From Halogeometricum borinquense DSM 11551 (lineage in GTDB: Archaea > Halobacteriota > Halobacteria > Halobacteriales > Haloferacaceae), in NCBI RefSeq assembly GCF_000172995.2, contig NC_014729.1, forward strand, positions 1,080,001 through 1,112,000: 32,000 nt of DNA, read 5' to 3'. Made by a program: the position numbers and the translations under genes. Of this stretch, positions 386 through 14,441 are shown one piece after another; the stretch's first letter is position 1; each line of letters begins with the position of its first letter. A model generated the notes under the pieces. It was given only the letters and a program-made list of their open reading frames with translations, did no database searches and was not told the DNA's origin.

Positions 386-2290
386 CTAATCCGAGTCGGC
401 GGCGGCCACGCTTTCGGTGTCGGAGTGGTCCGCACCGTCCCCACCAGAGTTATCTGTACTGTCAGTATCGCCAAGCTCGAAGCCGGACATCGACGCGTAC
501 AGTGACGCGTACGTGCCTTCGGCAGCGACTAACTCTTCGTGGGTGCCGTCTTCGACCATGCGCCCGTCAGCAACGGTGTAGATTCGGTCGGCGTCCACGA
601 CGCTTCCGAGTCGGTGTGTCACGACGACGAACACGCGGTTACGCGTCGCCTCACGGATGCTCCCGAGAACGGACTCCTCCATCCGCGCGTCGAGGTTACT
701 CGTTGCCTCGTCAAACACCACTACGTCCGCGTCTCGGAGGAGCGCGCGCGCGATGGCCACGCGCTGTTTTTGTCCGCCCGAGAGGCGTACGCCGTCCTCG
801 CCGAGAACGGTGTCGTATCCGTCCGACAACCCCTCCGCGAACGCTGTCACGCCCGCGTCGGCGCAGGCACGTTCGAACGCTGATTCCGAAGCCTCGGGCG
901 CGCTTGCAAGGACGTTGTTCCGAAGCGTATCGTCGAAGATGTACGGGTCCTGCCGGACGACAGCGAGACGGTCGCGCCAGTCGTCAACTCGAACAGTCGA
1001 GAGGTCGGTTCCGTTTACTCGAATCGTTCCCGTGTCGGGAGCGTACAGACGAGCGAGAAGCGAGACGATGGTTGACTTGCCCGCGCCCGACCCGCCGACG
1101 ATAGCAATGAATTCTCCGCGCTCAGCCCGGAGACTCACGTTCGAGACGCCTTGGTCGCCATCCGGATAGCGGAAGGAAACGCCGTCGAACGCGACCGATT
1201 CGACGGGTGCCGGTACGTCGGCGTCACCCCCGCGGACGGCCCGGGCAGCAGCCAGTTCGTCCAGTTCGCGGAGCGTCTCGACCAAGTGCGGAAGTTTGCC
1301 GTCGAGACCGTATAGTTGTGACTGAAGCGATGAGACACCGGGACCGAGACGGAGCATCGCAAAAAGCAGCAGGCCGACTGCGCCCAACGAGAGTGCCGCC
1401 CACGTCAACGCGAGATAGACGGCGACGAGAACGACGACGGCGGCGGCGAATCGGTGGAGATTCGAGACGATGGCCTGGTTGACGCGAAGGCCGACGACGG
1501 CGTCGATGTAATCGTCCAACGCGTCAGTGTAGCGTGTCGCGGCCACGTCGTCTAATCCGAACAGCCGCACGTCGCGGATGCCCTGTACGCCCGCCTGCGC
1601 GTGCGCTTGAATCTCCGTATTGGCCGCTGCGATGCTGCTTCCCGCCCCGTACGCAGACCCGACGACGGAGCGAACACCGACCGTAATGACACCGAGAAGA
1701 GCGGCGACAGCGGTCGTGAGGAGCGGGTCAACGGCGAGAGCGAGGATGAGATACGTAAAGACGAGCAACGTGCGTTCGACCACAGAGAGGACACTCGACA
1801 ACACCGTCGCCGGATAGTTCGACTGCGTGACAAGCGTGTTCAGCAGTTCGTCGGACCCGCGTTCGTCCACGTACGAGAGGTCCGCATCAAGGATGCCACG
1901 GAAGACACCCGTCTTGAGACTGCGGATATAGTCGGCGACGAGTTGCGCTTGCAGATAGCGGACGAACGTCGCCATCCCGAATCGGAGTCCGAGTGCGAGA
2001 GCCGCGCCGCCGAGAAGCGTCTCGAACGTGAACGGAACGCCCACAGCGCCGTACGCCGCCGCAAACCACGAGACGACGGTCTGGTCGGACGCCACAGTGA
2101 GCGATGTGCGCCCGGCTTCGACCAGCGGAAGCAGAAAGCTCAGTCCGACTCCCTCGAAGACAGCGACGACGAGGCTCAGTGCAACGACCCCGCCGAATCG
2201 TGTCGGGTCGTAGGAGATGACAGTCCGAAGTGCGGCGAGCTTCTCTCCGAGCGTCGCAGACGGTGCTTCCGAGGAACGTTCGTCGCTCAC
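386..2290 (-). CDS. ABC exporter with fused permease and ATPase domains (MsbA/McjD-like half transporter).
   Basis: 634 aa. The hydrophobic multi-helix N-terminal half begins near aa 33, so there is no N-terminal C39 peptidase domain. Walker A GGSGAGKST, signature LSGGQKQR, Walker B VVVFDEATS. The start at 2288-2290 is GTG. The C-terminal tail is acidic. Confidence 0.9.
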   Translation of the reverse strand: MSDERSSEAPSATLGEKLAALRTVISYDPTRFGGVVALSLVVAVFEGVGLSFLLPLVEAGRTSLTVASDQTVVSWFAAAYGAVGVPFTFETLLGGAALALGLRFGMATFVRYLQAQLVADYIRSLKTGVFRGILDADLSYVDERGSDELLNTLVTQSNYPATVLSSVLSVVERTLLVFTYLILALAVDPLLTTAVAALLGVITVGVRSVVGSAYGAGSSIAAANTEIQAHAQAGVQGIRDVRLFGLDDVAATRYTDALDDYIDAVVGLRVNQAIVSNLHRFAAAVVVLVAVYLALTWAALSLGAVGLLLFAMLRLGPGVSSLQSQLYGLDGKLPHLVETLRELDELAAARAVRGGDADVPAPVESVAFDGVSFRYPDGDQGVSNVSLRAERGEFIAIVGGSGAGKSTIVSLLARLYAPDTGTIRVNGTDLSTVRVDDWRDRLAVVRQDPYIFDDTLRNNVLASAPEASESAFERACADAGVTAFAEGLSDGYDTVLGEDGVRLSGGQKQRVAIARALLRDADVVVFDEATSNLDARMEESVLGSIREATRNRVFVVVTHRLGSVVDADRIYTVADGRMVEDGTHEELVAAEGTYASLYASMSGFELGDTDSTDNSGGDGADHSDTESVAAADSD

Positions 2291-2673
2291 CGGCGACCAC
2301 CCGGGCGGTGTGCCCGCACGGCATCTGTGTGGGTCACCAGTACGTTCATGCGAGAAAAGGCGTCCGAGAGGCGGTTAAGTATGGGTCGCATTACGGGCCC
2401 TAGCTGTTCGTTTCGGACGGCGGATTGGACGGTAACAAATAGCAAGTCAGACGAGGCGTGCCGAGCGGAGGAAATCAACAGTCGGAGAGGGACAAATAGA
2501 GGGTGCAGGCGAGGAGGACCGAATAAAGAGAGCAGGCAAGAGGACCGAATGGGGGAGCAACGGGATGAACCAACGGACGAGAATCAACGAGGGCAGTCAC
2601 CAGCGGAAATACAACAAACGAGGATTCTCGAGGATGACTCACCACTGCGAGTATCGATCCACCGACGAATGGG

Positions 2674-2781
2674 CTACGATTCGTACTGCTTCGGTGGGAT
2701 GCTCGCGTCGTAATCGTTGTAAGTCTGCGTCTGTTCGTGAACGGTTCCGTAGGTTTCGAGCGTCGGGCGGTCGTACGTCAT
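2674..2781 (-). CDS. Candidate RiPP precursor peptide, 35 aa: MTYDRPTLETYGTVHEQTQTYNDYDASIPPKQYES.
   Basis: It starts at an internal ATG (2779-2781) of track ORF 2674..2898 and ends at TAG 2674-2676. 27 of 35 codons end in G or C (hand count). Y3, P6, L8, G12 and T18 fit the lasso leader motif YxxPxLx3Gx5Tx exactly. The C-terminal residue is Ser. It lies between the ABC exporter and the GNAT/PqqD/kinase genes. An SD-like GAGGTG lies 15 nt upstream. Confidence 0.65.
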   Translation of the reverse strand: MTYDRPTLETYGTVHEQTQTYNDYDASIPPKQYES

Positions 2782-2856
2782 AGTTCGAGGTCTGGACACC
2801 TCACTGGATACCTGTCCGGTTTCGGTGTTAGTTACTCTCGCATGAACTGACAACCC

Positions 2857-2883
2857 ATATATCAGTTCAGACCATATACAATT
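2857..2883. promoter_or_regulatory. AT-rich divergent promoter block between the precursor ORF (minus) and the GNAT gene (plus), with two TATA-like elements.
   Basis: ATATAT at 2857-2862 and ATATACAATT at 2874-2883 sit in an otherwise GC-rich context. They lie about 76-100 nt from both divergent start codons, so both transcripts would carry 5' UTRs. Confidence 0.3.
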
Positions 2884-2966
2884 GTTCACAACCACCAAAT
2901 ACTGTTACCTTCGGGGTTAGCCGTGCCCATACTAGACGCGTTCTATCATCACAGTCTCAATAACCA

Positions 2967-4145
2967 ATGGCGTCTCAGCCGTCAGTTCCGGCAATGAGTC
3001 TCGCACGCCACTCGGAGACGGTCGAACTAGACGATCAAACCTATCTTGTCCGGCCGTTTCAGTCGGACGACGAAAGTGGTCTCCGTGGCGTCTACGAGTC
3101 GGTAAGTGGCCGGGATCCCGGACACGAGTGGTTCGAGACGATGTACGGCTCCGAGAGTCTATTCGAGGACGCACCCATCGTCGTCATCGAATTCGAGGGA
3201 GACATCGTCGGCATGCTCCCGTCAGTTGCGTACCGAGTTCGGGTCGGTGAGAAATCGGCTATCGGCCTGCTCGGACGCGACGTAATGGTTCACCCGGAAC
3301 ATCGCCGCCGTGGAGTGTTCACCGCGGCGACGAACGTCGCTCTCGGAGGATATCTCGACTATGGAGAGGCGACGTTCATCTTCGGCCACATGAACGAACA
3401 GTCTCGCCAAGCGTGCGAGGAGATGGGTTGGAACATCCCGTCGATGCAACCGCAGTTCATCCGGCCGCGGAACGTCCGCGACTTCGTCCGCACTCGGACG
3501 GGGCAAAATCGGAGTCTCCGCGGGGCGCTGACGGCGACAACGCTTGCGGGCAACACGCTCGTCCACGATGCCGTCCGACGCGAGCGCGGCCTCTGCCGTC
3601 CAACTGATACGCTCGACGTGCAACGCGTCGATGGCGTACCCGCAGACAGATTGACTCGACTCCACGAGACGGCCACCCCGGAGACTATTCATCCGATTTT
3701 CGACGTACAGACGATTCGAGCGCACTTTTCGGACCCTGATTTCACCGGGCTTCGGACGTACGTCGCCGCGCGCGGCGGTTCGGACGTGGCGGCTCTCGTC
3801 GTCTCCGAGCGGCGGTGGCACCGAACACGCTGGCATTCAATCGTCCACGTCGCTCCGCTCTCCGGTGGCAAGACGCGCAAGCGCGCACTCGCCGCGCTTC
3901 TCGAACGCGCTCTGACGGACAAAAAGGGAAGTGACAGCGCTACCTCCGCCGACGCTTATCGCGTCGCGGTTCCGTTCCCGTCGGACCTCCTCCGGTCGTT
4001 CGGCTTCCTCTCGGACCGGACGTTCCCGATGTCGCGGCTCGAACCGCCGCGACTCTCACTCGGGTACCGCGTCATCAACGACGGACACGGGATTCGTGCG
4101 GCGCTCGCCGACGACAGTCACCATCTCTGGCACGTGGCGATGTGA
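2967..4145 (+). CDS. Large GNAT-family N-acetyltransferase: an N-terminal GNAT domain plus about 200 aa of uncharacterised C-terminal sequence.
   Basis: 392 aa. GNAT motif-A-like segment LLGRDVMVHPEHRRRGVFTAATNVAL...HMNEQSRQACEEMGW. ATG at 2967; an alternative ATG at 2994 is possible. Confidence 0.75.
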   Translation: MASQPSVPAMSLARHSETVELDDQTYLVRPFQSDDESGLRGVYESVSGRDPGHEWFETMYGSESLFEDAPIVVIEFEGDIVGMLPSVAYRVRVGEKSAIGLLGRDVMVHPEHRRRGVFTAATNVALGGYLDYGEATFIFGHMNEQSRQACEEMGWNIPSMQPQFIRPRNVRDFVRTRTGQNRSLRGALTATTLAGNTLVHDAVRRERGLCRPTDTLDVQRVDGVPADRLTRLHETATPETIHPIFDVQTIRAHFSDPDFTGLRTYVAARGGSDVAALVVSERRWHRTRWHSIVHVAPLSGGKTRKRALAALLERALTDKKGSDSATSADAYRVAVPFPSDLLRSFGFLSDRTFPMSRLEPPRLSLGYRVINDGHGIRAALADDSHHLWHVAM

Positions 4146-4261
4146 GTCGCCGCATCGGTTCGAGGCAACAATGAGCCAGAGAAAGCAGGGACAGATGAGA
4201 GACGGTCTCAGAGGAACTGAATACCGCCCGCCCCTGAACCGAAATCGGTCGTTCGGGGTGG

Positions 4262-4552
4262 TTACGCCGTTTCCGTGACTTCGGCCAGCCCGGCGTCAAC
4301 GAGGGTTTCGACGTACTCGCGTACGTCGGCCGCCGCCACTTCCGACTCGATATCGTACTCCTCCTCGATGGCGGCCGCAACGGCCTCGACCGTCTGTGGT
4401 TCGTCGATGAGTTCGAAAATCCGCGTTCCGACCGGGTTCATGCCGTGGTACAGTCCGGTGTCGAGGTTTAACAGGAGTCGTTCGCCACCCACGTCGGCGG
4501 CAACGACATCGGCGGACGCAACTACCGTTTTCTCGGGTGCAATGGCTGTCAT
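4262..4552 (-). CDS. PqqD-family protein (RiPP recognition element, lasso B1-like peptide chaperone).
   Basis: About 96 aa from ATG 4552; the track ORF starts at GTG 4576. The sequence ...GERLLLNLDTGLYHGMNPVGTRIFELIDEPQTVEAVAAAIEEEYDIE...VREYVETLVDAGL is a typical PqqD winged-helix pattern. Confidence 0.8.
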   Translation of the reverse strand: MTAIAPEKTVVASADVVAADVGGERLLLNLDTGLYHGMNPVGTRIFELIDEPQTVEAVAAAIEEEYDIESEVAAADVREYVETLVDAGLAEVTETA

Positions 4553-4645
4553 AGTGAGTAGAACGGGCGGTTGCACGATAGTTACTCACCGCGAACCAGT
4601 TGTTAGCCGATGGAAACCGAGTCAGCGACTCGCTACGTTCCTCGC

Positions 4646-5905
4646 CTAGCGGGGTTCGACTCGTCGCCGAAGCGCTTTGACAGCAAGGCGTGCTGGGCGG
4701 GTGACACGGTAGAGGCCGTGTAGGGAGTCTGGAAGCGAGACGGCCGCGTAGTCGGCCTGTTGCGGGACGAACGCCAGCCGGCACAGTGTCAGCACCTGCT
4801 GGCGGCGAGTGTCACACAACTGCAGTTCGTACCGCGTCCGCCGCCGCCGTCCGCGTTCGCCGTACGCGGCCGTTTCAGGATTCGATGCGACGAACCCCTG
4901 TGCGTCGATGACGACGCGACGAACGTTCGAATCCGCGCGGGCGTCGGCGAGTATCTCTGCTGGAACGGGCGCGTCGGCCGTCTCAGCCGCGAGCAACAGA
5001 CAGGCATGGAGGATGCGGCGTCGGTTGGCGCGCGCTGCACGCGCGCGGAGTCGGTCCCAGTCGATGTCGTTCTCAGAGAGGAACGCCGCGACGTCTACTA
5101 CCCAACCGAGGCGATTCCAGTAGTGTTTCGCGCCGTGGCGTGCGAGGACGAGAACCGTGTCCTCGTTCGAGAACGTCGGCACCGGGCGGCCGCCGACGAG
5201 TACCTCGGTTCGACGCTCCCACGCCGTCTCGAACGTCAACCACGACGGTCTGAGGTCGGTCCCGAGTCGCCAACGGAGTTCGACAGCGACGCCGACGGAC
5301 GGCGGCCGTCGGGTTGCCACAGTTCTCTCGGGGGTGTCCTCGGAAGGTCGGAAGTACGTGCGCTCGGCAGCGCGTGAGACAAGACTCTCTGCGTCTGTAA
5401 CTGCCGTTCCGTTCTCGGACCACGGGTTGTAGCCGAGTGATTCGAGGACGGCGCAGGCCTCAGGCACGTCTCCGGGTGGGACGAACAAGTCGAGGTCCGA
5501 GAAATCTCGGCGTGACAGGTCGCCATAGGCCGATACGGCGAGAACCGGGCCTTTGTAGACCAGACAACGGAGTCCGGCGTCGGCGAACGCGGACAGGACG
5601 CGGTGGAGTTCAGCGACGAACGAGAGGTTTCGGACACCCGTGGCACGGCACCGCTCTCTCGCGCGCGATTCAAACGCGGCGGGCACGTCGGCGTCGGTGA
5701 GGTGCGATGCGACCAGTGGTCCAACGCCGAGGTGATGTGCGGCCGTCAGTACCTCGTCCGCCTCGACTTCGGGTGCAAGGCGAGATATCGCCGTTTGCGC
5801 TGTTTCGTCGAGTGTCGGCCGCGCCAGCGCAGTCGCCAGCGCCACGGCGTCGTCGTCAGTGTCTGCCCTTTCGTGACCCTTGCGCGCGGCGGATGTGGCG
5901 CTCAC
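4646..5905 (-). CDS. Nucleotidyltransferase-family protein (PF14907-like 'uncharacterised nucleotidyltransferase').
   Basis: The motif VYKGPVLAVSAYGDLSRRDFSDLDLFVPPGD is a typical NTase G..DxD-type segment. I propose the start at GTG 5903-5905, which overlaps the kinase TGA stop (5902-5904) as GTGA. The track's longer ORF (to 6010) would overlap the kinase by 109 nt. Confidence 0.7.
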   Translation of the reverse strand: MSATSAARKGHERADTDDDAVALATALARPTLDETAQTAISRLAPEVEADEVLTAAHHLGVGPLVASHLTDADVPAAFESRARERCRATGVRNLSFVAELHRVLSAFADAGLRCLVYKGPVLAVSAYGDLSRRDFSDLDLFVPPGDVPEACAVLESLGYNPWSENGTAVTDAESLVSRAAERTYFRPSEDTPERTVATRRPPSVGVAVELRWRLGTDLRPSWLTFETAWERRTEVLVGGRPVPTFSNEDTVLVLARHGAKHYWNRLGWVVDVAAFLSENDIDWDRLRARAARANRRRILHACLLLAAETADAPVPAEILADARADSNVRRVVIDAQGFVASNPETAAYGERGRRRRTRYELQLCDTRRQQVLTLCRLAFVPQQADYAAVSLPDSLHGLYRVTRPARLAVKALRRRVEPR

Positions 5906-6840
5906 GAACCGACCTCCTGTTCGATACGGGAGACCACGTCCGGAAGCGCGTCGAACCGTCGAGGACGCGTTAGCGTTGCTACGGGGACCGACTCGACGAC
6001 AGAGAGACACCGGTCTACGGCGAGTATCGCCTCATCGCGGCGCTGTTGCGTGCCGACTGTGTAGGCGTTCCGCCCGAGTTCCGCGACGGCGGCGACGGAC
6101 GGAAGCGGGGTCACTGTCACGTCGTCGCCATCAACGAGGCGATAAACTGCCGCGAGCGGTACTGGATCGGAGTCTACATCGGCGGTCCGGTAGAACCGTT
6201 CGTCGGGACGAGAAGCAGTTGGCGTATTCTCACCGCCGTCAGTGACCGGGACGAGTCCACCGCCGAGCGTGGCCGCCGCGTCGTCGTGGAGTTTGATGGA
6301 CGCGAATCCGGGTTGGACGACGGGGCCGTCGTCGGTGAATCGGATGGCCGCCACGTCGTCGCCGAGCGCTCGGTGCCCGGCGGCGGCGAACGCGCCCGCG
6401 GTCGTAGATTTTCCCGCACCGGACTCACCGACGAACGCGACGGCACGACCGTCAACGGCGACGACGCTCCCGTGCAAGACGAGGTGGCCGCGTTGGTGCA
6501 AAAGGAAGTTGAACGCGGGGCCGAGAACCGTCCAGCGGACGTCTCTCTCGGTAGCGTCGGGCGCGGGGTCCACGACGATTTCGCGCCCTTGACTAACAGT
6601 AATGCGACAGGCGTCGTAAAGGAGGATGAACTCCTCGGGTGTCTCGAACGTTACGGCGGGGCCGTCGTCGGGGGTTTCTCCGTCGAACGGCACGGTTCCG
6701 ACGCGGACAAATACGTCGGCGTCGCCCTCAGCAGATTCGGTGACGACAGTTTCCGGGAGTTCCGGAAACGTAAGCGTCGAGGCAACGTCGAGACCGAACG
6801 CGCGGTATCGAAAGCGGCCTCGGGAGTCGGTACGCGTCAT
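5902..6840 (-). CDS. HPr kinase/phosphorylase-like P-loop kinase (HprK-related, lasso-cluster 'K'-type).
   Basis: 312 aa. LHGSVVAVDGRAVAFVGESGAGKSTTA matches the HprK C-terminal domain P-loop context. ATG at 6838-6840. Confidence 0.8.
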   Translation of the reverse strand: MTRTDSRGRFRYRAFGLDVASTLTFPELPETVVTESAEGDADVFVRVGTVPFDGETPDDGPAVTFETPEEFILLYDACRITVSQGREIVVDPAPDATERDVRWTVLGPAFNFLLHQRGHLVLHGSVVAVDGRAVAFVGESGAGKSTTAGAFAAAGHRALGDDVAAIRFTDDGPVVQPGFASIKLHDDAAATLGGGLVPVTDGGENTPTASRPDERFYRTADVDSDPVPLAAVYRLVDGDDVTVTPLPSVAAVAELGRNAYTVGTQQRRDEAILAVDRCLSVVESVPVATLTRPRRFDALPDVVSRIEQEVGS

Positions 6841-6864
6841 GGAAAACAGACGGAGACGTTCGTC

Positions 6865-6876
6865 AATAAGTATAGA
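6865..6876 (-). promoter_or_regulatory. TATA box for the kinase-NTase-PqqD operon (leaderless transcript).
   Basis: The minus strand reads TCTATACTTATT, centred about 30 nt upstream of the kinase ATG (6840). Confidence 0.5.
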
Positions 6877-7148
6877 GCGCGTTACGCGTCAAAACCAGCC
6901 GTTAGCCGTCAACAATCGATTCGGGAACTCCCTCACCGTGTGAGGTGACAAACACCGGTGCGGGAGCGCCCGTGACTACTCGTCGTCCATCGTGAGCTGA
7001 CGACGACCCTCGTATCGTCTACGTCTGTTTGTCTACGTTCCGTACGTTTCGGTCGGAGGGCGGTCGTCCATGCTCGGGGGAGTTCCCCATTGCCGAGATA
7101 GCCGTCGAAACTGTTAGTTACTCGGCGCTGTCCTCATATTGGCGCGTC

Positions 7149-7298
7149 CTAACTGCGGCGAGATTCGACCGGAATGAACCAATGCTTGGCAATATCTACC
7201 GCATAACCGTTGCGTCGCAGCCGTTCAATTTCGCCGGACAACGAGCGGATATCCGAAATGATTCGGATATGTGTCAGTTCAGTATCCTCTACTATCAT
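7149..7298 (-). CDS. Small hypothetical ORF (49 aa, MIVEDTELTHIRIISDIRSLSGEIERLRRNGYAVDIAKHWFIPVESRRS) in an AT-rich gap. It may be a gene remnant.
   Basis: Hand translation gives ATG 7296-7298 and TAG 7149-7151. The sequence looks like a plausible amphipathic protein, but codon third positions are AT-rich, unlike the neighbouring genes. Confidence 0.25.
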   Translation of the reverse strand: MIVEDTELTHIRIISDIRSLSGEIERLRRNGYAVDIAKHWFIPVESRRS

Positions 7299-7447
7299 AG
7301 CCTTCTCAGAGTATTCTCATCATCTGTATTTGGAGATTTAGCGGCGTTTGCTGGTAGAATGGCGTTTGAACTCTAGATATCTGCGTTCGCTAGCAATAAT
7401 ATTTCCAACACGCTCTAGTTCTCTGGTATGATATCTGGGACCAAGGG

Positions 7448-7455
7448 TTATTTTT
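7448..7455 (+). promoter_or_regulatory. TATA box for the 7477 gene (leaderless).
   Basis: TTATTTTT is centred about 26 nt upstream of ATG 7477. Confidence 0.45.
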
Positions 7456-7476
7456 GTCGGCTGCTGTGGTGCCCGT

Positions 7477-7863
7477 ATGGGTATCGCACATCTAGTTGAT
7501 CTCCTCCGGTCAGAGCTGCACGAGGACTTGCGGTGCTGCGTGGAGTATGCGGGTGAGGAGGTTCAACCACATTATCTGCGGTCCGACGTGGACCCAGCTA
7601 CTGCGCGCGAACACGCGCATCTCCTGCGACGGTTCTACATCGGTCAAGAGTCCGTCCGACGTCACGAGACGAATCCGTCCGGTCCGGGCAGCCTGCGCGG
7701 GTCCGTCCACTACTTCGAGGAACTAGTCGCCATCATCGTCCCCTTGGGCACGGACACCACTATCGGTGTGTTCCTCGACGGGGATTCGGCGGTGATTCCC
7801 GAACCACGCCTCTCCCAGTTGTCGGAAGAATGGGCAATCGAAGCGTCCGACTGCGTCCGCTGA
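7477..7863 (+). CDS. Hypothetical protein (128 aa, acidic, haloarchaeal type).
   Basis: Clean ATG ORF with a TATA box at -26. I recognise no family with confidence. Confidence 0.55.
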   Translation: MGIAHLVDLLRSELHEDLRCCVEYAGEEVQPHYLRSDVDPATAREHAHLLRRFYIGQESVRRHETNPSGPGSLRGSVHYFEELVAIIVPLGTDTTIGVFLDGDSAVIPEPRLSQLSEEWAIEASDCVR

Positions 7864-7923
7864 GGACCGCGAATCGATAGCGACGACGGCAAACTGGCTG
7901 GTACCCGCGAATAGAGTCAGCCG

Positions 7924-9033
7924 TCAGAGCGAAACCCATTCGCCGCTGTCGTCCGACCGCTCGATTGCGTCCAGAATCTGCTGGACTGCGTACCCAGCCT
8001 CGAAGGAGGGAGAGAACGCCACCCCGTCGCGGATGGCCGAAAGGAATTCGTAGTTTTCGTGGACGAACGTGTGTTCCCAGCCGAGAACGTGTCCCGGTGG
8101 CCACCAGTGGTCGAGGTACGGGTCGTCCGCGTCGGTCATGAGAATCGTTTCGTAGCCCCGATGGTCGGCACCTTTGTACTCCAGTTCGTTCAGCCGTTCG
8201 AGTGAGAACCGTAGACTCCCCTCGGAGCCGTGAATCCGGATCGTGTGGTCGTTTTTGTGCCCATCGGCGACGCGTGACGCCTCAAACGTTCCCATCGCAC
8301 CGTTCTCGAACGTCGCCTGCGCGGAGTAGGCGTCGTCAACCGTCACCGGTCGCGTTTCGTCTGTTCCCTCGACGGGTCGCTCTGCTACGAACGTCTGCAA
8401 ATTCCCGGAGATACGTTCGATGTCACCCGCGACATCACCGACGAGGAAGCGTGCGAGGTCGATTGTATGCGCGCCGAGGTCGCCCAACGCGCCGCTTCCG
8501 GCGAGTTTCGCATCGTTCCGCCACGACCACGGAGCGTCAGCGTCTGTTAGCCAATCCTGCATGTAGCTCCCGCGGACGTGACGAATCTCGCCGAGTGTTC
8601 CGTCGTCGATCAGTCCCTTCGCGTATTGAATCGCCGGGACAAACCGGTAGTTGAAGGCACATCCGGCGATGGCGTCGGAGTCGGCGGCGGCATCACGCAT
8701 CTTCTCGGCCTCGTCCAGCGTCGGCGCGAGCGGTTTCTCGCAGAAGACTGGCGTGTCGGCCTTCAGCGCGGCAATGGATGGCTCCGCGTGGATGTGGTTC
8801 GGTCCGAGGTTGTAGAAGGCGTCAACTTCGTCTACGACCGATTCCCAGTCCGTCGCGGTGTGTTCGAAGCCGAGTTCGTCGGCGGCGCTGGCGAGCGCCT
8901 CCTCGTCGCGGCCGATGAGCGTGTGGCGGTGGACATCGGGCGCGTCGGGGAAGAACATCGGGAGACGCGCGAGCGCGTTCGAGTGCGCCTTACCCATGAA
9001 CCGGTAGCCGAGGACGGCGACGTTGAGCGTCAT
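7924..9033 (-). CDS. Gfo/Idh/MocA family NAD(P)-dependent oxidoreductase.
   Basis: 369 aa. N-terminal Rossmann segment LNVAVLGYRFMGKAHSNAL and the EKPLA motif (FCEKPLAPTLDEAEKM) are typical of the family. Confidence 0.88.
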   Translation of the reverse strand: MTLNVAVLGYRFMGKAHSNALARLPMFFPDAPDVHRHTLIGRDEEALASAADELGFEHTATDWESVVDEVDAFYNLGPNHIHAEPSIAALKADTPVFCEKPLAPTLDEAEKMRDAAADSDAIAGCAFNYRFVPAIQYAKGLIDDGTLGEIRHVRGSYMQDWLTDADAPWSWRNDAKLAGSGALGDLGAHTIDLARFLVGDVAGDIERISGNLQTFVAERPVEGTDETRPVTVDDAYSAQATFENGAMGTFEASRVADGHKNDHTIRIHGSEGSLRFSLERLNELEYKGADHRGYETILMTDADDPYLDHWWPPGHVLGWEHTFVHENYEFLSAIRDGVAFSPSFEAGYAVQQILDAIERSDDSGEWVSL

Positions 9034-9158
9034 AGTGAGCGGTTCTCACGGCGACGGCTTAGCGTTTCATGTCCAGCAACCTTTTGCGACGGTCCGCTCT
9101 CCTCCATTGAGGAGATACACTGTATCCCGAAAAACTGCTGACGAGTCTCTGAGACAGA

Positions 9159-10127
9159 CTACTCTGCCCAGTAGGCCTCGCCGGGTTTGGTGTCGAAGAC
9201 CGCGCGTCCGAGTACATCCACTGCCTTTTCGAGGCCCTCTCTGGACGAGGTGAGCGAGTCCTCGTGTTCGATGGAAAGTGCGCCCTCGTAGCCGACCATT
9301 CTGAGCGTCGAGACCACGTCCTTCCAGTGACTTTCGCCGTGACCGTAGCCGATAGAGCGGAACAGCCACGAGCGGTTCGGTTCGTCGGCGTAGTCGGTGG
9401 TGTCGAGGACGCCTTTGATGCGCGACTTGGGTTCGTACACTTTCGTGTCCTTCGCGTGGAAATGGTGAATCGCATCTTCCGTACCGAGGAACCGAATCGC
9501 GTCGGTCACCTCGATTCCCTGCCAGTAAAGGTGCGAGGGGTCGAAGTTCGCGCCGATTCGGTCGTTGGTCGCTTCGCGCAGTTTCAGCATCCCCGTCGGT
9601 TCGTAGACGAGCATGTTCGGGTGCATCTCGATGGCCATATCGACGCCGTGGTCGTCGGCAAATTCGGCGAGGGCAGACCAGTACTCGATTGCGACATCCC
9701 ATTGGTACTCGTGGGCGTCGGCGTGCTCGGTCGGCCACGGGGCCGTGATCCAGTTCGGCACCTCGTCGTTCGGGCCGCCCGCCGGAAGCCCCGAAAAGCA
9801 GGTGACGGTGTTTACATCTAACTGCGCGGCCAGTTCGATGGCTTCGCGGAGTTCGGTGTCCGCTTCCTCGGCCGTCTCCTCGTCCGGATGCAGCGGGTTG
9901 TTGTGCGTGGCGAGCGCGCTCACCTGCATGTCGTGTTCGTCTAACAGGTCGTGCAGTTGCGCCTGCTTGGACTCGTCGCCGAGGTACGCACGCCTGTCGA
10001 GATGGTCGTCGCCCGGAAAACCGCCGACACCGATCTCGACGCCCTGAACGCCGATATCGTCCAGATACGAGAGCGCGTCGGCGAGCGATTCGCCACCGAG
10101 CGGAACGGTGAGTACGCCGATGTACAT
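9159..10127 (-). CDS. Sugar phosphate isomerase/epimerase (xylose isomerase-like TIM barrel).
   Basis: 322 aa, with the pattern GVQGVEIG...HNNPLHPD...MAIEMHP...GHGE typical of AP endonuclease 2 / xylose isomerase-like TIM barrels. It is adjacent to a Gfo/Idh/MocA partner, a common pairing. Confidence 0.85.
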   Translation of the reverse strand: MYIGVLTVPLGGESLADALSYLDDIGVQGVEIGVGGFPGDDHLDRRAYLGDESKQAQLHDLLDEHDMQVSALATHNNPLHPDEETAEEADTELREAIELAAQLDVNTVTCFSGLPAGGPNDEVPNWITAPWPTEHADAHEYQWDVAIEYWSALAEFADDHGVDMAIEMHPNMLVYEPTGMLKLREATNDRIGANFDPSHLYWQGIEVTDAIRFLGTEDAIHHFHAKDTKVYEPKSRIKGVLDTTDYADEPNRSWLFRSIGYGHGESHWKDVVSTLRMVGYEGALSIEHEDSLTSSREGLEKAVDVLGRAVFDTKPGEAYWAE

Positions 10128-10226
10128 ACCGAATGCACAGGGTGCGTTTGATTAAATCTTGAGGGGGATGGTACCGATGGGCGAACGGCCTACAGTCTTT
10201 TGACTCTCTGTCATAGATATAGAGCC

Positions 10227-10514
10227 ATGCCGACATACATCACACACGTCGATGTCGATGGGGACGAATATCAGAATCCGCAGGAACTCGCGTCGATCTG
10301 GGGGTCCATCCGGGAAGATGTCCGGCAACTCGGCGGCGAAATACTCGACACGCACGTGGTTCTCGGCCCGTACGACTTCGACGTTCGGTTCGAGGTCTCG
10401 GACGACTGGGAGGCGTTTCAGGTGACGCAGGTCATCGAACGCCACGGTCTCGACACCGAGACGATGCAGGCGCTTCCCATCGAGCGTCTCGGAGAAGTCG
10501 TCGAGGACGTTTGA
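10227..10514 (+). CDS. GYD domain protein.
   Basis: 95 aa from ATG 10227 (MPTYITHVDV...LGPYDFDV...), the characteristic GYD-family start and core. The track ORF begins 27 nt upstream. Confidence 0.7.
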   Translation: MPTYITHVDVDGDEYQNPQELASIWGSIREDVRQLGGEILDTHVVLGPYDFDVRFEVSDDWEAFQVTQVIERHGLDTETMQALPIERLGEVVEDV

Positions 10515-10581
10515 ACACGTCCGGAGTGAAAGTCACCGGCGCGGTCGCTCCGACGGTGACCATCAGCCGATCAGCACAGCC

Positions 10582-11124
10582 TTATCGACGGAACAACTCG
10601 GAGAACTTCTCGCGGATACTCGCTTTTTCGCCCAAGCGGAGGTAGTATGCGTCGCCGCCGTCCTCGTAGTAGTTGCTGATCCGGCGCTTGACCTCGAATC
10701 CGATGTGTTCGTAAAACGAGAGGGCGTCTTCGTTCGTCGTTCGTGCGTGGCAGGAAACAGAGCGGTGGTCGCGGGCGACTTCAGCGACGAGTCGTTTGCC
10801 GTACCCCTTGCCGCGTGCCTCGGGGGCGACGGCAAGAAAGAGAATGTATCCGTCGCGGCGCGCGGCGGCAAACCCCATGAGTGTCTCATCCTCGAAGTAG
10901 AGGTGCGTCGTCGCGCGACGGTAGGCGTCCGTGAAGAATCCGTGTCGCTGCTTCAGCACGCCCTCGGACTCCCGGATCCGCTCTTTGAGTTCCCACGCCT
11001 CTTCGGCGTGTTCTGCGGACCCCGGTTGATCCACTCGTTTCTCCACGTTGACGCTCACACCGTCGGTTAGAGTGGTCACGAATATAACTCCACCGTCGTT
11101 GTGACCGAGACGCGAGAATTTCAT
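10582..11124 (-). CDS. GNAT family N-acetyltransferase (small).
   Basis: 180 aa. The motif LAVAPEARGKGYGKRLV...ALSFYEHIGFE is GNAT motif A/B. Confidence 0.88.
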   Translation of the reverse strand: MKFSRLGHNDGGVIFVTTLTDGVSVNVEKRVDQPGSAEHAEEAWELKERIRESEGVLKQRHGFFTDAYRRATTHLYFEDETLMGFAAARRDGYILFLAVAPEARGKGYGKRLVAEVARDHRSVSCHARTTNEDALSFYEHIGFEVKRRISNYYEDGGDAYYLRLGEKASIREKFSELFRR

Positions 11125-11189
11125 AGCGGCCCGCTCGCTGAAAACGGATGCATATCATAGCGGTCCGCTTGCTGACAAGCGGATGCACC
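11121..11189. repeat. Imperfect tandem duplication (about 34 bp x 2) spanning the GNAT start codon. The second copy carries a perfect palindrome.
   Basis: Unit 1 is TCATAGCGGCCCGCTCGCTGAAAACGGATGCATA (11121-11154). Unit 2 is TCATAGCGGTCCGCTTGCTGACAAGCGGATGCACC (11155-11189). The palindrome CCGCTTG-CTGA-CAAGCGG lies at 11165-11182. Confidence 0.7.
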
Positions 11190-11237
11190 CGACGACGACC
11201 GGAAGAGAGAGGGTGACGGCGACGCAGATTCGATGAC

Positions 11238-11651
11238 ATGAGCTTCGAACTCCGCGACCACACTGCCGACGTGGCCGTCGCCGCGTCCGCACCGACGCGT
11301 TCTGCACTGTTCGCCGCCGTCGCCGATGGCCTAGCCGCTGCCGGGTGCGACGAAATCCCCGAGACGGGTGGTGACCGGTTCGATGTTGAGGTCCGCGCCG
11401 AAAACGTCGAAGCGCTTCTGTTCGACTATCTCGATCAGCTTATCTTCGAACGCGACGTTCGCGCCGTCATGCCCGTCGATAACGAGGCGTCGGTCGAAGA
11501 ACGCGACGGGGAGTGGGTACTCACGGGGTCCGCACGCGGCGTCTCACTGGACGAGATTGATGCCCGCGAGATCAAGGCCGTCACCTACTCCGAGATGCGG
11601 GTCGAAGAGACGGACGAGGGGTGGGAAGCGTACGTCGTTCTCGACGTGTGA
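11238..11651 (+). CDS. Archease (RtcB activator/chaperone).
   Basis: 137 aa with the N-terminal FELRDHTADVAV signature and C-terminal KAVTYSEMRVEE... Confidence 0.9.
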   Translation: MSFELRDHTADVAVAASAPTRSALFAAVADGLAAAGCDEIPETGGDRFDVEVRAENVEALLFDYLDQLIFERDVRAVMPVDNEASVEERDGEWVLTGSARGVSLDEIDAREIKAVTYSEMRVEETDEGWEAYVVLDV

Positions 11652-11758
11652 TCCGCATGGGGTGAATCTATCTCTATTGTTCGTTATCGGGTTTCTTGCG
11701 CCCTCTACCGCCGTGATACGTCCGACGAACTTACCCCTTCTCGGTCGAAGGGAGAGAT

Positions 11759-12865
11759 ATGAAACAGAGACCGTTCGCGGCCCAGTTCGTCTCGTTCACC
11801 GCAGTTGTCGTCGTCGCCATCGTCGCTGCCACCGGACGAGCGAGCGCGCACGTGAAATACGTCACACCGGGAAGCGAACCGGTCGAAGTCGTCCAGTTCT
11901 TACTGACGGCGCTGTCGGATCCGTTCACACTCGCCGTCCTCGGCATCGGCGGCGTTACTGTCGGCGCACTCGTTGCACTCTACCTTCATCTCCGTCCGGC
12001 CCGCCGCGATGTTGCGGTGTTCCGTGAGACGATGGCTAGTTATGACGACTTGCTTCCGTGGTTGCTTCGTCTGAGTGTCGGACTCCCTCTCGTGGGTGCG
12101 GGCTTCGCTGGCTACTTTTTCAGTCCTCTCGTCCAGACTGCGATCCCGACGTTCACGCGCCTGTTCGGCATCGGCGTCGGCTTCCTGCTCCTGTTCGGAT
12201 TCGGGACGCGCCTCGTCGCCACCGTCGGTCTCCTCTCGTACCTCGTTGGTCTCGCTTTCGAACCGGCGCTGTTTCTCGCGTTCGAGTACGTCCCCGGGTT
12301 CCTCGCCATTGCGCTCCTCGGCGGCGGCCGTCCGAGCGCAGACCATCTCGTCGCGCGCCTCGCCGCCGACGACACTCTCTACTCCCGTATCGATCCGTTT
12401 TACCGCGCTGTCGCCGTGCCGTTCGTCCGTCGCGTTGAACCGTACACGTCGCTTGTTCCCGTCGTCCTCCGCGTCGGTCTCGGGATCTCGTTTATCTACC
12501 TCGGGATCGCGCAGAAACTGATGAACCCAGGCGACGCCCTCGCCGTCGTTGCCAAGTATGACTTGACCGCTGTGGTCCCCGTCGCGCCCGAACTGTGGAT
12601 CGTCGGCGCGGGTCTGACGGAAGTTCTCGTCGGCGTTGCACTTCTTTTCGGCGCGTTCACCCGCGGGGCGGCCGCCATCTCCTTTCTGCTCTTTACGACG
12701 ACGCTGTTCGGCCTTCCGGACGATCCGGTACTCGCTCATATCTCGCTGTTCGGTCTCGTCTCGGCGCTGTTAGTCACGGGTTCTGGCGCGTTTTCAGTGG
12801 ACGCGTGGCTTCACGAAACCGATGAGAGTCAAAAACACGAAGATACCGCACCGTCCGGTACCTGA
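11759..12865 (+). CDS. Polytopic membrane protein, DoxX-like (two hydrophobic modules), with an N-terminal signal/anchor.
   Basis: 368 aa with about 8 hydrophobic segments. The DoxX assignment rests on general resemblance only. Confidence 0.6.
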   Translation: MKQRPFAAQFVSFTAVVVVAIVAATGRASAHVKYVTPGSEPVEVVQFLLTALSDPFTLAVLGIGGVTVGALVALYLHLRPARRDVAVFRETMASYDDLLPWLLRLSVGLPLVGAGFAGYFFSPLVQTAIPTFTRLFGIGVGFLLLFGFGTRLVATVGLLSYLVGLAFEPALFLAFEYVPGFLAIALLGGGRPSADHLVARLAADDTLYSRIDPFYRAVAVPFVRRVEPYTSLVPVVLRVGLGISFIYLGIAQKLMNPGDALAVVAKYDLTAVVPVAPELWIVGAGLTEVLVGVALLFGAFTRGAAAISFLLFTTTLFGLPDDPVLAHISLFGLVSALLVTGSGAFSVDAWLHETDESQKHEDTAPSGT

Positions 12866-14419: not shown

Positions 14420-14441
14420 AAAGCGAGCGACCGACGCCGGC

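What the first reader, a model, noticed from the sequence alone, without database searches (positions are those of the whole stretch)
2674..2781. 35-aa ORF not listed separately in the track, whose N-terminus matches the lasso leader motif YxxPxLx3Gx5Tx at all five positions
The peptide is MTYDRPTLETYGTVHEQTQTYNDYDASIPPKQYES. Y3 (2773-2775), P6 (2764-2766), L8 (2758-2760), G12 (2746-2748) and T18 (2728-2730) have exactly the spacing Y(-17), P(-14), L(-12), G(-8), T(-2). That spacing was reported for lasso leaders recognised by PqqD-like B1/RRE proteins, from RODEO genome mining and B1-leader structures as I recall them. The ORF sits 1.5 kb from a PqqD gene. 27 of 35 codons end in G or C, like genuine genes here, and an SD-like GAGGTG lies upstream. 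It is visible in the track only as the tail of a longer, implausible ORF (2674..2898).
Basis: partly seen in the sequence, partly recalled or inferred. Interest (0 to 1): 0.9.

Follow-up and report, generated by a model that had tools for sequence, protein, structure and literature searches.

The report
Archaeal lasso-like precursor peptide, no cyclase
The 35-codon ORF is a real, conserved precursor-peptide gene of Halogeometricum borinquense with a lasso-type leader, but its gene cluster lacks the ring-forming enzyme, so it most likely makes a linear, phosphorylated, exported peptide of unknown role.

Summary
ORF 2674..2781(-) encodes MTYDRPTLETYGTVHEQTQTYNDYDASIPPKQYES, and the motif is far beyond chance. 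It is not unannotated: GenBank lists it as Hbor_11630, a hypothetical protein of H. borinquense.

It sits in a cluster of six genes:
- an HprK-like peptide kinase;
- an NTP_transf_5 nucleotidyltransferase;
- a PqqD/B1-type recognition protein;
- a GNAT acetyltransferase;
- the precursor;
- an MsbA-like ABC exporter.

Thirty-three of 35 related haloarchaeal loci carry homologous small ORFs with the leader YxxPx(L/V)ETYGxVxxxT. In Haloarcula these evolve mostly by synonymous change.

No archaeal locus has a lasso cyclase, and the cores have no conserved Asp/Glu at positions 7-9. Most relatives keep a B2 leader peptidase. H. borinquense has none in the locus.

The close relatives of the H. borinquense kinase share a core motif [G/A]-S-x-P (Ser27 here), a likely phosphorylation site. 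The C-terminal Ser is not conserved.

The best reading is a cyclase-less, lasso-derived pathway. It would be an archaeal analogue of the linear polyphosphorylated peptides described in Bacillota in 2026. The modifications, the leader removal and the function are all inferred, not shown.

This is a new variant of a known kind, of moderate interest.

The parts
2674..2781 (-). Precursor peptide gene (Hbor_11630, 35 aa). The predicted leader is residues 1-19 (2725-2781) and the predicted core is residues 20-35 (2677-2724).
   Evidence: Sequence. The motif is unique in the window against 0.015 expected. Homologues lie beside orthologous cassettes. GenBank record ADQ66753.1. Weak hit to NF033528 lasso_cyano, E=0.0034.
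2701..2703 (-). Codon of Ser27, the Ser of the clade-wide core motif [G/A]-S-x-P. It is the inferred phosphorylation site.
   Evidence: The motif is present in 8 of 8 precursors from the loci whose kinases are closest to this one (H. borinquense, L064, L066, L068). The C-terminal Ser35 (2677-2679) is not conserved. This is inference only.
4262..4552 (-). Stand-alone PqqD-type RiPP recognition element (lasso B1-like).
   Evidence: Pfam PqqD, E=1.9e-18. NCBIfam lasso_PqqD_Bac, E=2.9e-16, below cut-off. Best solved relatives are TbiB1 (E=2.2e-10), 9x90 and 9x8z. The equivalents of LppB N33/Y60/D70/F74 are N47/Y74/D84/Y88. Gene call of 96 aa.
5902..6840 (-). HprK-like peptide kinase of the PadeK/PsmK/LppK type.
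   Evidence: Pfam Hpr_kinase_C, weak. PF27840 ScmC and Hpr_kinase_C are precomputed for the identical protein. H123, K144, D161 and D162 are invariant across archaeal and bacterial homologues. Weak match to HprK/P structures.
4646..5905 (-). NTP_transf_5 nucleotidyltransferase (PsmN/LppN type). Its start overlaps the kinase stop.
   Evidence: Pfam PF14907, E=1.9e-60, nearly full length. Gene call of 419 aa. It follows the kinase in the related archaeal loci that extend past the kinase.
2994..4145 (+). Eis-like GNAT acetyltransferase, divergent from the precursor gene. It is an accessory gene; its role (tailoring or immunity) is unknown.
   Evidence: Pfam Acetyltransf_9, E=5e-9. Homologues lie next to the cluster in L064/L065 and in Halobellus L002/L003 but not in Haloarcula.
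386..2290 (-). MsbA/HepA-like ABC exporter (permease plus ATPase, no peptidase domain).
   Evidence: Pfam ABC_membrane and ABC_tran. NCBIfam HepA/MsbA-like, below cut-offs. Conserved in the related archaeal loci long enough to show it.
2829..2835 (-). Promoter-like box GTAACTA, 54 nt upstream of the precursor ATG. The family consensus is ATAAC(A/T)A.
   Evidence: The box is present 43-58 nt upstream of the ATG in most of the 37 unique precursor upstream regions, across otherwise unalignable DNA. Its function is inferred.
2786..2803 (-). Predicted 6-bp hairpin UGAGGU-GUCCAG-ACCUCG in the 5' region.
   Evidence: RNAfold gives -7.8 kcal/mol. Similar GC-rich hairpins occur upstream of many homologues, but enrichment over shuffles is not significant.
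2375..2393 (-). Conserved element TAATGCGACCCATACTTAA, 25 nt upstream of a fossil ATG (2347-2349) and 85 nt upstream of the ABC start. It is a putative promoter of the leaderless-transcript type.
   Evidence: One match in the window with none in 100 shuffles. The same element lies 25-27 nt upstream of the kinase start in L064, L065 and L136.
6866..6885 (-). Diverged copy of the same element (GTAACGCGCTCTATACTTAT), 25 nt upstream of the kinase ATG.
   Evidence: Alignment A6.

Best explanation
ORF 2674..2781(-) is the precursor (A) gene of a lasso-derived RiPP pathway that has lost the lasso cyclase.

Proposed mechanism. Every biochemical step below is inferred from homology; what is shown is gene content, conservation and motif retention.
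1. The 35-aa peptide is translated from its own promoter.
2. Its N-terminal YxxPxL motif (Y3, P6, L8) docks as a beta-strand onto the stand-alone PqqD/B1-type recognition protein. Tyr3 would be held by Asp84 of that protein.
3. The recognition protein presents the C-terminal core to the HprK-like kinase. The kinase (poly)phosphorylates a Ser: most likely Ser27 of the clade-conserved [G/A]-S-x-P motif, otherwise the C-terminal Ser35.
4. The NTP_transf_5 enzyme adds a further group, such as a hexose or nucleotide, to the phosphate, as PsmN does.
5. The GNAT either acetylates the product or protects the producer.
6. The MsbA-like ABC transporter exports the product.

Because there is no cyclase and no acidic ring acceptor, the product stays linear.

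Relatives have a B2 cysteine peptidase that would cut after the conserved T(-2)-x. H. borinquense has none in the locus. Its leader is therefore removed by an unlinked protease or is not removed at all.

The biological role (antagonism, signalling or cell surface) is unknown.
For: The gene is real and conserved:
- Motif uniqueness in the window.
- Homologous small ORFs in 33 of 35 archaeal loci, always inside the cassette.
- In Haloarcula the ORF is 94-98% identical while its flanks are 49-83% identical. Changes are mostly synonymous, except in L011, where core substitutions bring pN close to pS.
- There is a conserved upstream ATAAC(A/T)A box.

Cluster content.

The recognition protein is lasso-B1-like and keeps the Tyr-binding Asp: read together with the LppB and PbaB1 structures described in PMC13381572 section 8.

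The kinase keeps the His-Lys-Asp-Asp residues of characterised lasso kinases: with PMC9266682.

Known activities of homologues:
- PadeK, ThcoK and PsmK polyphosphorylate a Ser of the precursor, and PsmN is needed for adding hexose to the phosphate (PMC9266682, PMC6993621).
- LppK polyphosphorylates an internal Ser of a linear peptide, in a Bacillota cluster of RRE, kinase, NTP transferase and MsbA-like exporter with no cyclase (PMC13381572).

No cyclase:
- Pfam scans of window ORFs and gene calls with Pfam families for the neighbourhood.
- tblastn with 11 bacterial cyclases and the Halopiger cyclase against all archaeal loci.

The core motif follows the kinase grouping. [G/A]-S-x-P occurs with the kinases 54-65% identical to this one, and D-[G/D]-G-Y-[G/D] occurs with those about 40% identical.
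Against: - No expression, mass-spectrometry or binding data exist.
- H. borinquense lacks B2 in the locus, so leader removal is unexplained.
- The locus is rearranged relative to its relatives. In a second strain the ABC gene is truncated, so the pathway could be decaying.
- In the larger group (Haloarcula, Halobellus, Halorubrum, Natronomonas) many cores have no Ser or Thr at all, and the conserved hydroxyl residue is Tyr. LppK did not accept S-to-Y (PMC13381572). The chemistry in this family may therefore differ from simple Ser phosphorylation.
- A cyclase or B2 elsewhere in the H. borinquense genome could not be excluded. The B2 protein search was insensitive: it missed even the Haloarcula B2 proteins.
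Confidence: 0.66

Rival explanations
1. It is a true lasso peptide precursor. The leader peptidase B2 and the lasso cyclase C are encoded elsewhere in the H. borinquense genome and act in trans.
For: - The leader is of lasso type, and the recognition protein is closest to lasso B1 proteins.
- Complete B1-B2-C clusters with the same type of leader exist in haloarchaea, for example Halopiger pHALXA01.
- Bacterial relatives of the kinase sit in full lasso clusters.
- Whole-genome absence could not be tested.
Against: - The core TYNDYDASIPPKQYES has no Asp/Glu at positions 7-9. Its first residue is Thr, which I recall as unusual for lasso cores.
- No ring acceptor is conserved across the family.
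- None of 35 archaeal loci has a cyclase within the sequence held (up to 10 kb on each side; many contigs are much shorter), although most keep B2.
- The only Asn-synthase gene found (L003) has the MCGI glutaminase N-terminus and scores like a housekeeping AsnB.
- No B2 hit from Halogeometricum appeared in the protein or plasmid searches, though those searches have limited sensitivity.
Confidence: 0.07
2. The locus is a decaying remnant in H. borinquense. The peptide gene is conserved by descent, but the pathway no longer yields a mature product.
For: - B2 is absent, with no remnant.
- The gene order is rearranged, and a duplicated promoter plus fossil kinase start now lies in front of the ABC gene.
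- In strain GCA_004150395.1 the ABC gene is cut at 450 aa and joined to an unrelated transducer gene.
Against: - All six genes are intact in the window, and catalytic residues are kept.
- The peptide and PqqD genes are identical in the two strains, and the other cluster genes differ by only 1-5 bases.
- An independent relative (L066/L067) also lacks B2 but has an otherwise complete, compact operon.
- Pseudomycoidin is made efficiently without its leader peptidase (PMC6993621).
Confidence: 0.15
3. The peptide is bound by the recognition protein and exported, but the kinase and NTase modify something else, or carry out different chemistry on the peptide such as Tyr or Asp modification or nucleotidylation.
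For: - In the large sister group the only conserved hydroxyl residue in the core is Tyr, in D-G-G-Y-G.
- The H. borinquense core also has D-Y-D just before A-S.
- One relative (L069) has the kinase and NTase among glycosyltransferase and DUF1616 genes, with no peptide found, although that contig begins only 227 nt before the kinase.
- The exact reaction of PsmN is unresolved (PMC6993621).
Against: - All characterised members of this kinase family phosphorylate Ser of the co-encoded precursor (PMC9266682, PMC13381572).
- The precursor, kinase and NTase are adjacent in nearly all loci.
Confidence: 0.1
4. It is a chance ORF, or only the tail of the longer 74-codon ORF 2674..2898.
For: The mechanical ORF list shows only the 74-aa version.
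Against: - Motif statistics.
- In all homologues the Met lies 1-3 residues before the Tyr, and sequence upstream of it is not conserved.
- GenBank and other gene callers call the 30-43 aa versions.
Confidence: 0.01

Closest known systems
Linear polyphosphorylated peptides (LPPs) of Bacillota (Popov et al., Nat Commun 2026, PMC13381572)
   Same: [quoted passage not shown]
- A short precursor with an N-terminal YxxPx(V/L) RRE-binding motif.
- No macrolactam cyclase.
- In LPPs the phosphorylated Ser is internal (core residue 3), which parallels the inferred internal Ser27 here.
   Different: - LPP clusters are defined by a SipW-like signal peptidase I as leader peptidase. The archaeal clusters use a lasso B2 (Transglut_core3) peptidase, or, in H. 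borinquense, none.
- The rest of the LPP leader consensus (VLxHQxIxFETxxS) is absent. The archaeal leader is ...ETYGxVxxxT-x.
- The paper describes LPPs as restricted to Bacillota, and this is a haloarchaeon.
- A GNAT gene is present here.
Paeninodin- and pseudomycoidin-type phosphorylated (and glycosylated) lasso peptides (PadeK, ThcoK, PsmK, PsmN; PMC9266682, PMC6993621)
   Same: - The same enzyme families: B1 RRE, HprK-like kinase with His-Lys-Asp-Asp, NTP_transf_5 and an ABC exporter.
- The same leader logic, with Thr at -2.
- The H. borinquense peptide happens to end in Ser, as their precursors do.
   Different: - No cyclase C, no B2 in this locus, and no ring-acceptor Asp/Glu.
- The C-terminal Ser is not conserved among archaeal relatives. 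It is conserved in the bacterial kinase-containing lasso clusters seen here.
Halopiger xanaduensis pHALXA01 lasso cluster (NC_015658.1)
   Same: It is a haloarchaeal cluster with PqqD, B2, an NTP transferase and an ABC exporter. Its precursor has a closely similar leader (YSPPELTEYGSIESVTE).
   Different: It has a cyclase-type Asn-synthase homologue (no Cys2; 34% identical to a bacterial lasso cyclase) and no HprK-like kinase. The H. borinquense locus is the opposite: a kinase but no cyclase.
NCBIfam lasso leader and precursor models NF033521 (lasso_leader_L3) and NF033528 (lasso_cyano)
   Same: 12 and 16 of 19 archaeal family members match these models at E<=1. PGAP names Halobellus and Halorubrum homologues accordingly.
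   Different: The H. borinquense peptide reaches only 17.3 bits against NF033528 (cut-off 33) and does not match NF033521. It remains 'hypothetical protein'.
HPr-rel-A system (TIGR04352 and TIGR04353) and SynChlorMet cassette proteins ScmC and ScmD
   Same: An HprK-related P-loop protein is paired with a PqqD-family peptide chaperone.
   Different: The matches are far below cut-off: 39 bits against 200 and 26 against 35 for HPr-rel-A, and 24 against 125 and 37 against 100 for Scm. This locus is not a member of either.

Membership tests
Lasso peptide biosynthetic gene cluster | Precursor with a [Y/W]xxPx[L/V/I..] leader motif and Thr at position -2 | tested here: met
   Y3, P6, L8, G12 and T18 are present. 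Y3, P6 and G12 are invariant in the alignment of 19 family members; position 8 is L, V or I, and position 18 is T or S. The motif definitions come from PMC13381572 and PMC10368454.
Lasso peptide biosynthetic gene cluster | Stand-alone or fused PqqD-like RRE (B1) | tested here: met
   Pfam PqqD, E=1.9e-18. The closest solved structure is TbiB1, E=2.2e-10.
Lasso peptide biosynthetic gene cluster | B2 transglutaminase-like cysteine leader peptidase (PF13471) | tested here: not met
   No tblastn hit. No hit with an HMM built from 13 archaeal B2 proteins against the six-frame window (best E=0.16). B2 is present in most relatives. Elsewhere in the genome was not testable.
Lasso peptide biosynthetic gene cluster | Lasso cyclase (Asn-synthetase homologue) | tested here: not met
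   No Asn_synthase domain among the window ORFs scanned or among the gene calls covering window 939-16866 and about 5 kb of the other strain's sequence beyond the breakpoint. tblastn with 12 cyclases finds only the purF glutaminase domain.
Lasso peptide biosynthetic gene cluster | Core with Asp/Glu at position 7, 8 or 9 to close the ring with the new N-terminus | tested here: not met
   The core after T18-Q19 is TYNDYDASIPPKQYES, with acidic residues at positions 4, 6 and 15 only. No acceptor position is conserved in relatives.
Linear polyphosphorylated peptides (LPP, PMC13381572) | [quoted passage not shown] | tested here: met
Linear polyphosphorylated peptides (LPP, PMC13381572) | SipW-like (archaeal-type) signal peptidase I as the cluster-encoded leader peptidase | tested here: not met
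   No signal-peptidase family appears among the cluster genes or their called neighbours. Relatives carry B2 instead.
Linear polyphosphorylated peptides (LPP, PMC13381572) | Leader consensus YxxPxVLxHQxIxFETxxS | tested here: not met
   Only the YxxPxL part matches. The remainder here is ETYGTVHEQTQ.
Linear polyphosphorylated peptides (LPP, PMC13381572) | Polyphosphorylation of a core Ser by the kinase | not testable with these tools
   This needs mass spectrometry. There is only indirect support: the conserved [G/A]-S-x-P Ser and the conserved catalytic residues.
Paeninodin-type kinase-tailored lasso peptides | Strictly conserved C-terminal Ser as phospho-acceptor | tested here: inconclusive
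   The H. borinquense peptide ends in Ser. Its closest relatives end in L, E, R, N or T, and Haloarcula variants end in S, N or D.
NCBIfam NF033528 and NF033521 lasso precursor/leader families | Score at or above the curated cut-off | tested here: not met
   17.3 bits against a cut-off of 33 for NF033528, and no NF033521 hit for this peptide.

The most novel reading that the evidence does not exclude
Haloarchaea carry a widespread, uncharacterised RiPP family that descends from lasso clusters. It keeps the B1 recognition protein, usually the B2 peptidase, an HprK-like kinase and an NTP transferase, but it has dropped the cyclase and makes linear, phosphate-decorated peptides. Its acceptor residue has switched between Ser ([G/A]-S-x-P in the group that includes H. 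borinquense) and Tyr (D-G-G-Y-G in Haloarcula, Halorubrum, Halobellus and Natronomonas). That would imply Tyr-directed chemistry by an HprK-family kinase or by the NTP transferase. In H. borinquense maturation would also proceed without a dedicated leader peptidase.
Probability: 0.3. Interest if true: 0.72.

Novelty: new variant of a known kind. Interest (0 to 1): 0.55.

Why it matters
If correct, the linear phosphorylated relatives of lasso peptides are not confined to Bacillota. That class was described only in 2026 and was reported as restricted to that phylum. It would extend to Archaea, with a different leader peptidase (B2, or none).

The family offers about 30 natural precursor variants with two distinct conserved core motifs. 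These make the substrate rules of the HprK-like peptide kinases and of the enigmatic NTP_transf_5 enzymes directly testable.

It also identifies the substrate gene for a haloarchaeal cluster type that genome-mining papers have flagged only as an unassigned RiPP/RRE cluster (PMC10093198).

For genome annotation, Hbor_11630 should be relabelled from 'hypothetical protein' to a lasso-type leader-containing precursor.

Tried and rejected
- The 35-aa peptide was too short for the search for homologous proteins, so I reached homologues through the kinase instead.
- The first kinase alignment (25 sequences) was too diverse to seed the locus search. A 10-sequence alignment worked.
- I treated the Asn-synthase gene inside the Halobellus ordinarius cluster (L003 5562-7550) as a possible cyclase and rejected it. 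It has the MCGI glutaminase N-terminus, scores 301 and 151 bits on Asn_synthase and GATase_7 like a housekeeping AsnB, and is absent from the sister species.
- I treated the SGGKDS-containing ORFs near the Haloarcula clusters as possible cyclases and rejected them. They are diphthamide-synthase family proteins.
- The search for B2 elsewhere in H. borinquense was inconclusive. The protein search returned 76 hits, none from Halogeometricum, but it also missed the Haloarcula B2 proteins. The plasmid search found only Halopiger.
- A conserved 5'-UTR hairpin upstream of the precursors looked attractive, with apparent compensatory stems. It is not statistically supported: mean z is -0.8, and 81% of sequences have a hairpin against 61% of shuffles. 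MAFFT also misaligned the window sequence.
- PDB sequence searches for the GNAT and the NTase gave nothing.
- Rfam gave no match in the window.
- The sigma-70 promoter and intrinsic-terminator scans found nothing, and they are not suited to archaea.
- The two available H. borinquense strains differ too little for a dN/dS estimate.
Full report
OBSERVATION.

Reading the minus strand from 2781 to 2674 gives ATG...TAG and the peptide MTYDRPTLETYGTVHEQTQTYNDYDASIPPKQYES. 27 of 35 codons end in G or C. GC content by codon position is 0.50/0.39/0.78, a coding-like pattern in a window whose genes have GC3 of 0.70-0.85.

The pattern Y..P.L...G.....T occurs once in all six frames of the window. 200 Markov simulations gave 0.015 occurrences on average, and none had an ORF beginning with the motif.

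The mechanical ORF list shows only the 74-codon version starting at a TTG. The 35-aa protein is nevertheless already in GenBank as ADQ66753.1 / Hbor_11630, 'hypothetical protein', of Halogeometricum borinquense DSM 11551. The kinase next to it is 100% identical to an H. borinquense protein, which identifies the organism.

THE NEIGHBOURHOOD.

Pfam, NCBIfam and public gene calls give this order:
- 5902-6840(-): an HprK-like kinase.
- 4646-5905(-): an NTP_transf_5 nucleotidyltransferase (E=1.9e-60). Its start overlaps the kinase stop.
- 4262-4552(-): a stand-alone PqqD protein (E=1.9e-18).
- 2994-4145(+): an Eis-like GNAT.
- 2674-2781(-): the small ORF.
- 386-2290(-): an MsbA/HepA-like ABC exporter with no peptidase domain.

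The flanking genes are housekeeping: an IF-2B family gene on the left and a GFO/IDH/MocA oxidoreductase on the right.

The PqqD protein's best solved relatives are lasso B1 proteins: TbiB1 (E=2.2e-10), then 9x90 and 9x8z, which are PbaB1 and LppB. In the ungapped alignment to LppB, the residues that the crystal-structure paper names as holding the leader Tyr and Pro are matched here. LppB N33, Y60, D70 and F74 correspond to N47, Y74, D84 and Y88 (PMC13381572, section 8).

The kinase keeps H123, K144, D161 and D162 invariant across archaeal, cyanobacterial, proteobacterial and Paenibacillus homologues. This fits the His-Lys-Asp-Asp catalytic motif reported for lasso-tailoring kinases (PMC9266682).

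COMPARATIVE EVIDENCE.

I collected 35 haloarchaeal-type loci using the kinase as the handle. They came from one genome scan, one metagenome scan and several exact-protein look-ups. Genera include Halobellus, Haloarcula, Halorubrum and Natronomonas, plus metagenomic contigs.

Thirty-three of the 35 contain one to three small ORFs of 28-43 aa with the same N-terminus, M-x(1-3)-Y-x-x-P-x-(L/V)-E-T-Y-G-x-(V/I)-x-x-x-(T/S)-x. The ORFs always lie inside the cassette. The two exceptions are contigs that end just upstream of the kinase.

In seven Haloarcula species the ORF is 94-98% identical, while the DNA 120 nt upstream and 200 nt downstream is 49-83% identical. Substitutions are mostly synonymous. 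The exception is L011, where core substitutions bring pN close to pS.

Y3, P6, T10 and G12 are invariant across 19 diverse members. Gene callers in other projects call these ORFs. NCBI's pipeline names the Halobellus and Halorubrum ones 'lasso RiPP family leader peptide-containing protein'. Twelve of 19 match NF033521 and 16 of 19 match NF033528. The H. borinquense peptide reaches only 17.3 bits against NF033528, whose cut-off is 33.

WHAT IS MISSING.

Cyclase. No archaeal locus has a lasso cyclase. tblastn with eleven bacterial lasso cyclases and with the Halopiger cyclase finds nothing. The one exception is a gene in Halobellus ordinarius that has the MCGI glutaminase N-terminus and housekeeping-level Asn_synthase and GATase scores, and that is absent from its sister species. 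In the window itself no scanned ORF or called gene has an Asn_synthase domain.

B2 peptidase. Most relatives do have a B2-type Transglut_core3 peptidase, usually directly after PqqD. H. borinquense and one metagenomic relative (L066/L067) do not. An HMM built from 13 archaeal B2 proteins finds no remnant in the window.

Ring acceptor. With cleavage after the conserved T(-2)-x, the H. borinquense core is TYNDYDASIPPKQYES. It has no Asp/Glu at positions 7-9, and no such position is conserved in the family.

Contrast with full lasso clusters. The bacterial relatives of the kinase retrieved in the same scans sit in complete lasso clusters. Their precursors have a Gly-1...Asp-8/9 pattern and an invariant C-terminal Ser. 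Halopiger xanaduensis pHALXA01 has a full B1-B2-C cluster with a very similar leader but no kinase.

The H. borinquense cassette is thus derived from lasso clusters but is not a lasso cluster.

TWO PRECURSOR GROUPS.

- Loci with kinases 54-65% identical to this one (H. borinquense, L064/L065, L066/L067, L068) have cores that share [G/A]-S-x-P. Examples are DAS27IPP here, then EASYPP, IGSEPP, EGSAPP, NGSAPI, NGSYPV, VGSEPV and NGSEPT: 8 of 8.
- Loci with kinases about 40% identical (Haloarcula, Halobellus, Halorubrum, Natronomonas and others) have cores that share D-[G/D]-G-Y-[G/D]. These cores often contain no Ser or Thr at all.

The conserved Ser or Tyr lies 5-8 residues after the predicted cleavage site in both groups. 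The C-terminal Ser of the H. borinquense peptide is not conserved, even among its closest relatives.

MECHANISM (inferred).

Characterised homologues set the expectations:
- PadeK, ThcoK and PsmK (poly)phosphorylate a Ser of the linear precursor before cyclisation.
- PsmN (NTP_transf_5) is required to add one or two hexoses to that phosphate (PMC9266682, PMC6993621).
- In Bacillota a cyclase-less cluster of RRE, HprK-like kinase, NTP transferase and MsbA-like exporter polyphosphorylates an internal Ser of a linear peptide that carries a YxxP leader. These are the 'LPPs' (PMC13381572).

By analogy I propose the following sequence:
1. The PqqD protein binds Y3/P6/L8 of the leader.
2. It presents the core to the kinase, which phosphorylates Ser27 or, less likely, Ser35.
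3. The NTase decorates the phosphate.
4. The GNAT either acetylates the product or protects the producer.
5. The ABC transporter exports a linear product.

Leader removal in H. borinquense is unexplained. Function is unknown, as it is for LPPs.

COMPARISON AND NOVELTY.

The system works like an LPP or a phosphorylated lasso pathway, but it fails defining features of both:
- Against lasso clusters: no cyclase and no ring acceptor.
- Against LPPs: no SipW-like peptidase, a different leader tail, and it is not from Bacillota.

In the literature searched I found no description of this archaeal cyclase-less family or of its precursors. I found only passing antiSMASH-based mentions of a Haloarcula RiPP cluster with B1, B2 and a kinase (PMC10093198), and general counts of euryarchaeal lasso clusters (PMC7533575, PMC12214591).

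I therefore rate it a new variant of a known kind. The leader motif itself is already captured by NCBI models for relatives.

CAVEATS.

- Nothing here shows expression, binding or modification.
- The H. borinquense locus is rearranged relative to its relatives, where the order is precursor-kinase-NTase-ABC-PqqD-B2. A duplicated promoter-like element and a fossil kinase start now lie in front of the ABC gene.
- In a second strain the ABC gene is truncated, so decay is a real possibility.
- A trans-encoded cyclase or B2 cannot be excluded with the tools available.

Noticed in passing
window 2829-2835 (-); homologous positions 43-58 nt upstream of precursor ATGs in L002-L017, L064-L081: A conserved box ATAAC(A/T)A (GTAACTA in H. 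borinquense) precedes most of the 37 unique precursor upstream regions, in DNA that is otherwise unalignable between genera. It is probably the TATA/promoter element of the precursor genes, which would imply a 5' UTR of about 20-25 nt.
   Followed up: partly
window 2375-2393 (-) and 6866-6885 (-); L064 9958-9974, L065 2719-2735, L136 167-183: The element TAATGCGA(C/G)CCATACTTAA lies 25-27 nt upstream of the kinase ATG in relatives. That spacing suggests a leaderless transcript. In H. borinquense a diverged copy precedes the kinase. A perfect copy precedes a fossil ATG (2347-2349, ATGAACGTA...) that aligns with kinase starts but now lies 59 nt upstream of the ABC gene. This is evidence of a partial duplication or rearrangement of the locus.
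   Followed up: partly
window 2344-2355 and 2836-2847: A perfect 12-nt inverted repeat (GTTCATGCGAGA / TCTCGCATGAAC) brackets the precursor ORF and its 3' spacer. The minimum-free-energy fold of the minus-strand RNA pairs the two arms. The downstream arm overlaps the fossil kinase start. This could be chance, a long-range RNA stem, or a scar of the rearrangement.
   Followed up: partly
window 2514-2524 and 2540-2550: A direct repeat GAGGACCGAAT occurs twice, 26 nt apart, in the 383-nt spacer between the precursor stop and the ABC start. Its meaning is unknown.
   Followed up: no
window ~939 (inside the ABC gene 386-2290); L063 15902: A second H. borinquense assembly (GCA_004150395.1) is 99.4% identical to the window from 16866 down to 939, then diverges completely. 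There the ABC gene is called at only 450 aa and is followed by a 580-aa ORF with MCP/transducer-like sequence. So there is a strain-specific rearrangement breakpoint inside the exporter gene.
   Followed up: partly
L002-L017, L070-L083, L137, L138 (Haloarcula, Halobellus, Halorubrum, Natronomonas): The larger sister group of precursors has the core motif D-[G/D]-G-Y-[G/D], and many of its cores lack any Ser or Thr. The conserved Tyr would be an unprecedented acceptor for an HprK-family peptide kinase, so the chemistry may differ.
   Followed up: partly
L003 5562-7550 (-) (Halobellus ordinarius): A glutamine-hydrolysing AsnB-like gene (MCGI N-terminus) is inserted between the precursors and the ABC gene. 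It is absent from Halobellus marinus. It is not a cyclase by sequence criteria, but it could be a cluster-specific amidotransferase.
   Followed up: partly
L134 (Halopiger xanaduensis pHALXA01, NC_015658.1 22874-27979): This is a complete archaeal B1-B2-C lasso cluster with an NTP transferase and an ABC exporter. An unannotated candidate precursor, MSGNKDSSQYSPPELTEYGSIESVTEQVNKEGVASDQWSENTPLLGSIQPAPT, lies directly after the cyclase (locus 11311-11472). There is no kinase.
   Followed up: partly
L069 228-2349 and neighbours; L134 4768-5820: One kinase-NTase pair sits among glycosyltransferase, UDP-sugar and DUF1616 genes with no precursor found, although the contig begins only 227 nt before the kinase. 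DUF1616 also flanks the Halopiger cluster. This hints at a link to cell-surface glycan loci, as reported for LPPs in Bacilli.
   Followed up: no
window 2786-2803 (-) and equivalent positions in relatives: Short GC-rich hairpins lie just upstream of many precursor ATGs, with different stem sequences: GGGTG/CACCC, GGGT/ACCC, GGGG/CCCC, GGGC/GCCC, and GAGGT/ACCTC here. The pattern is suggestive of covariation, but enrichment over shuffled controls was not significant.
   Followed up: yes
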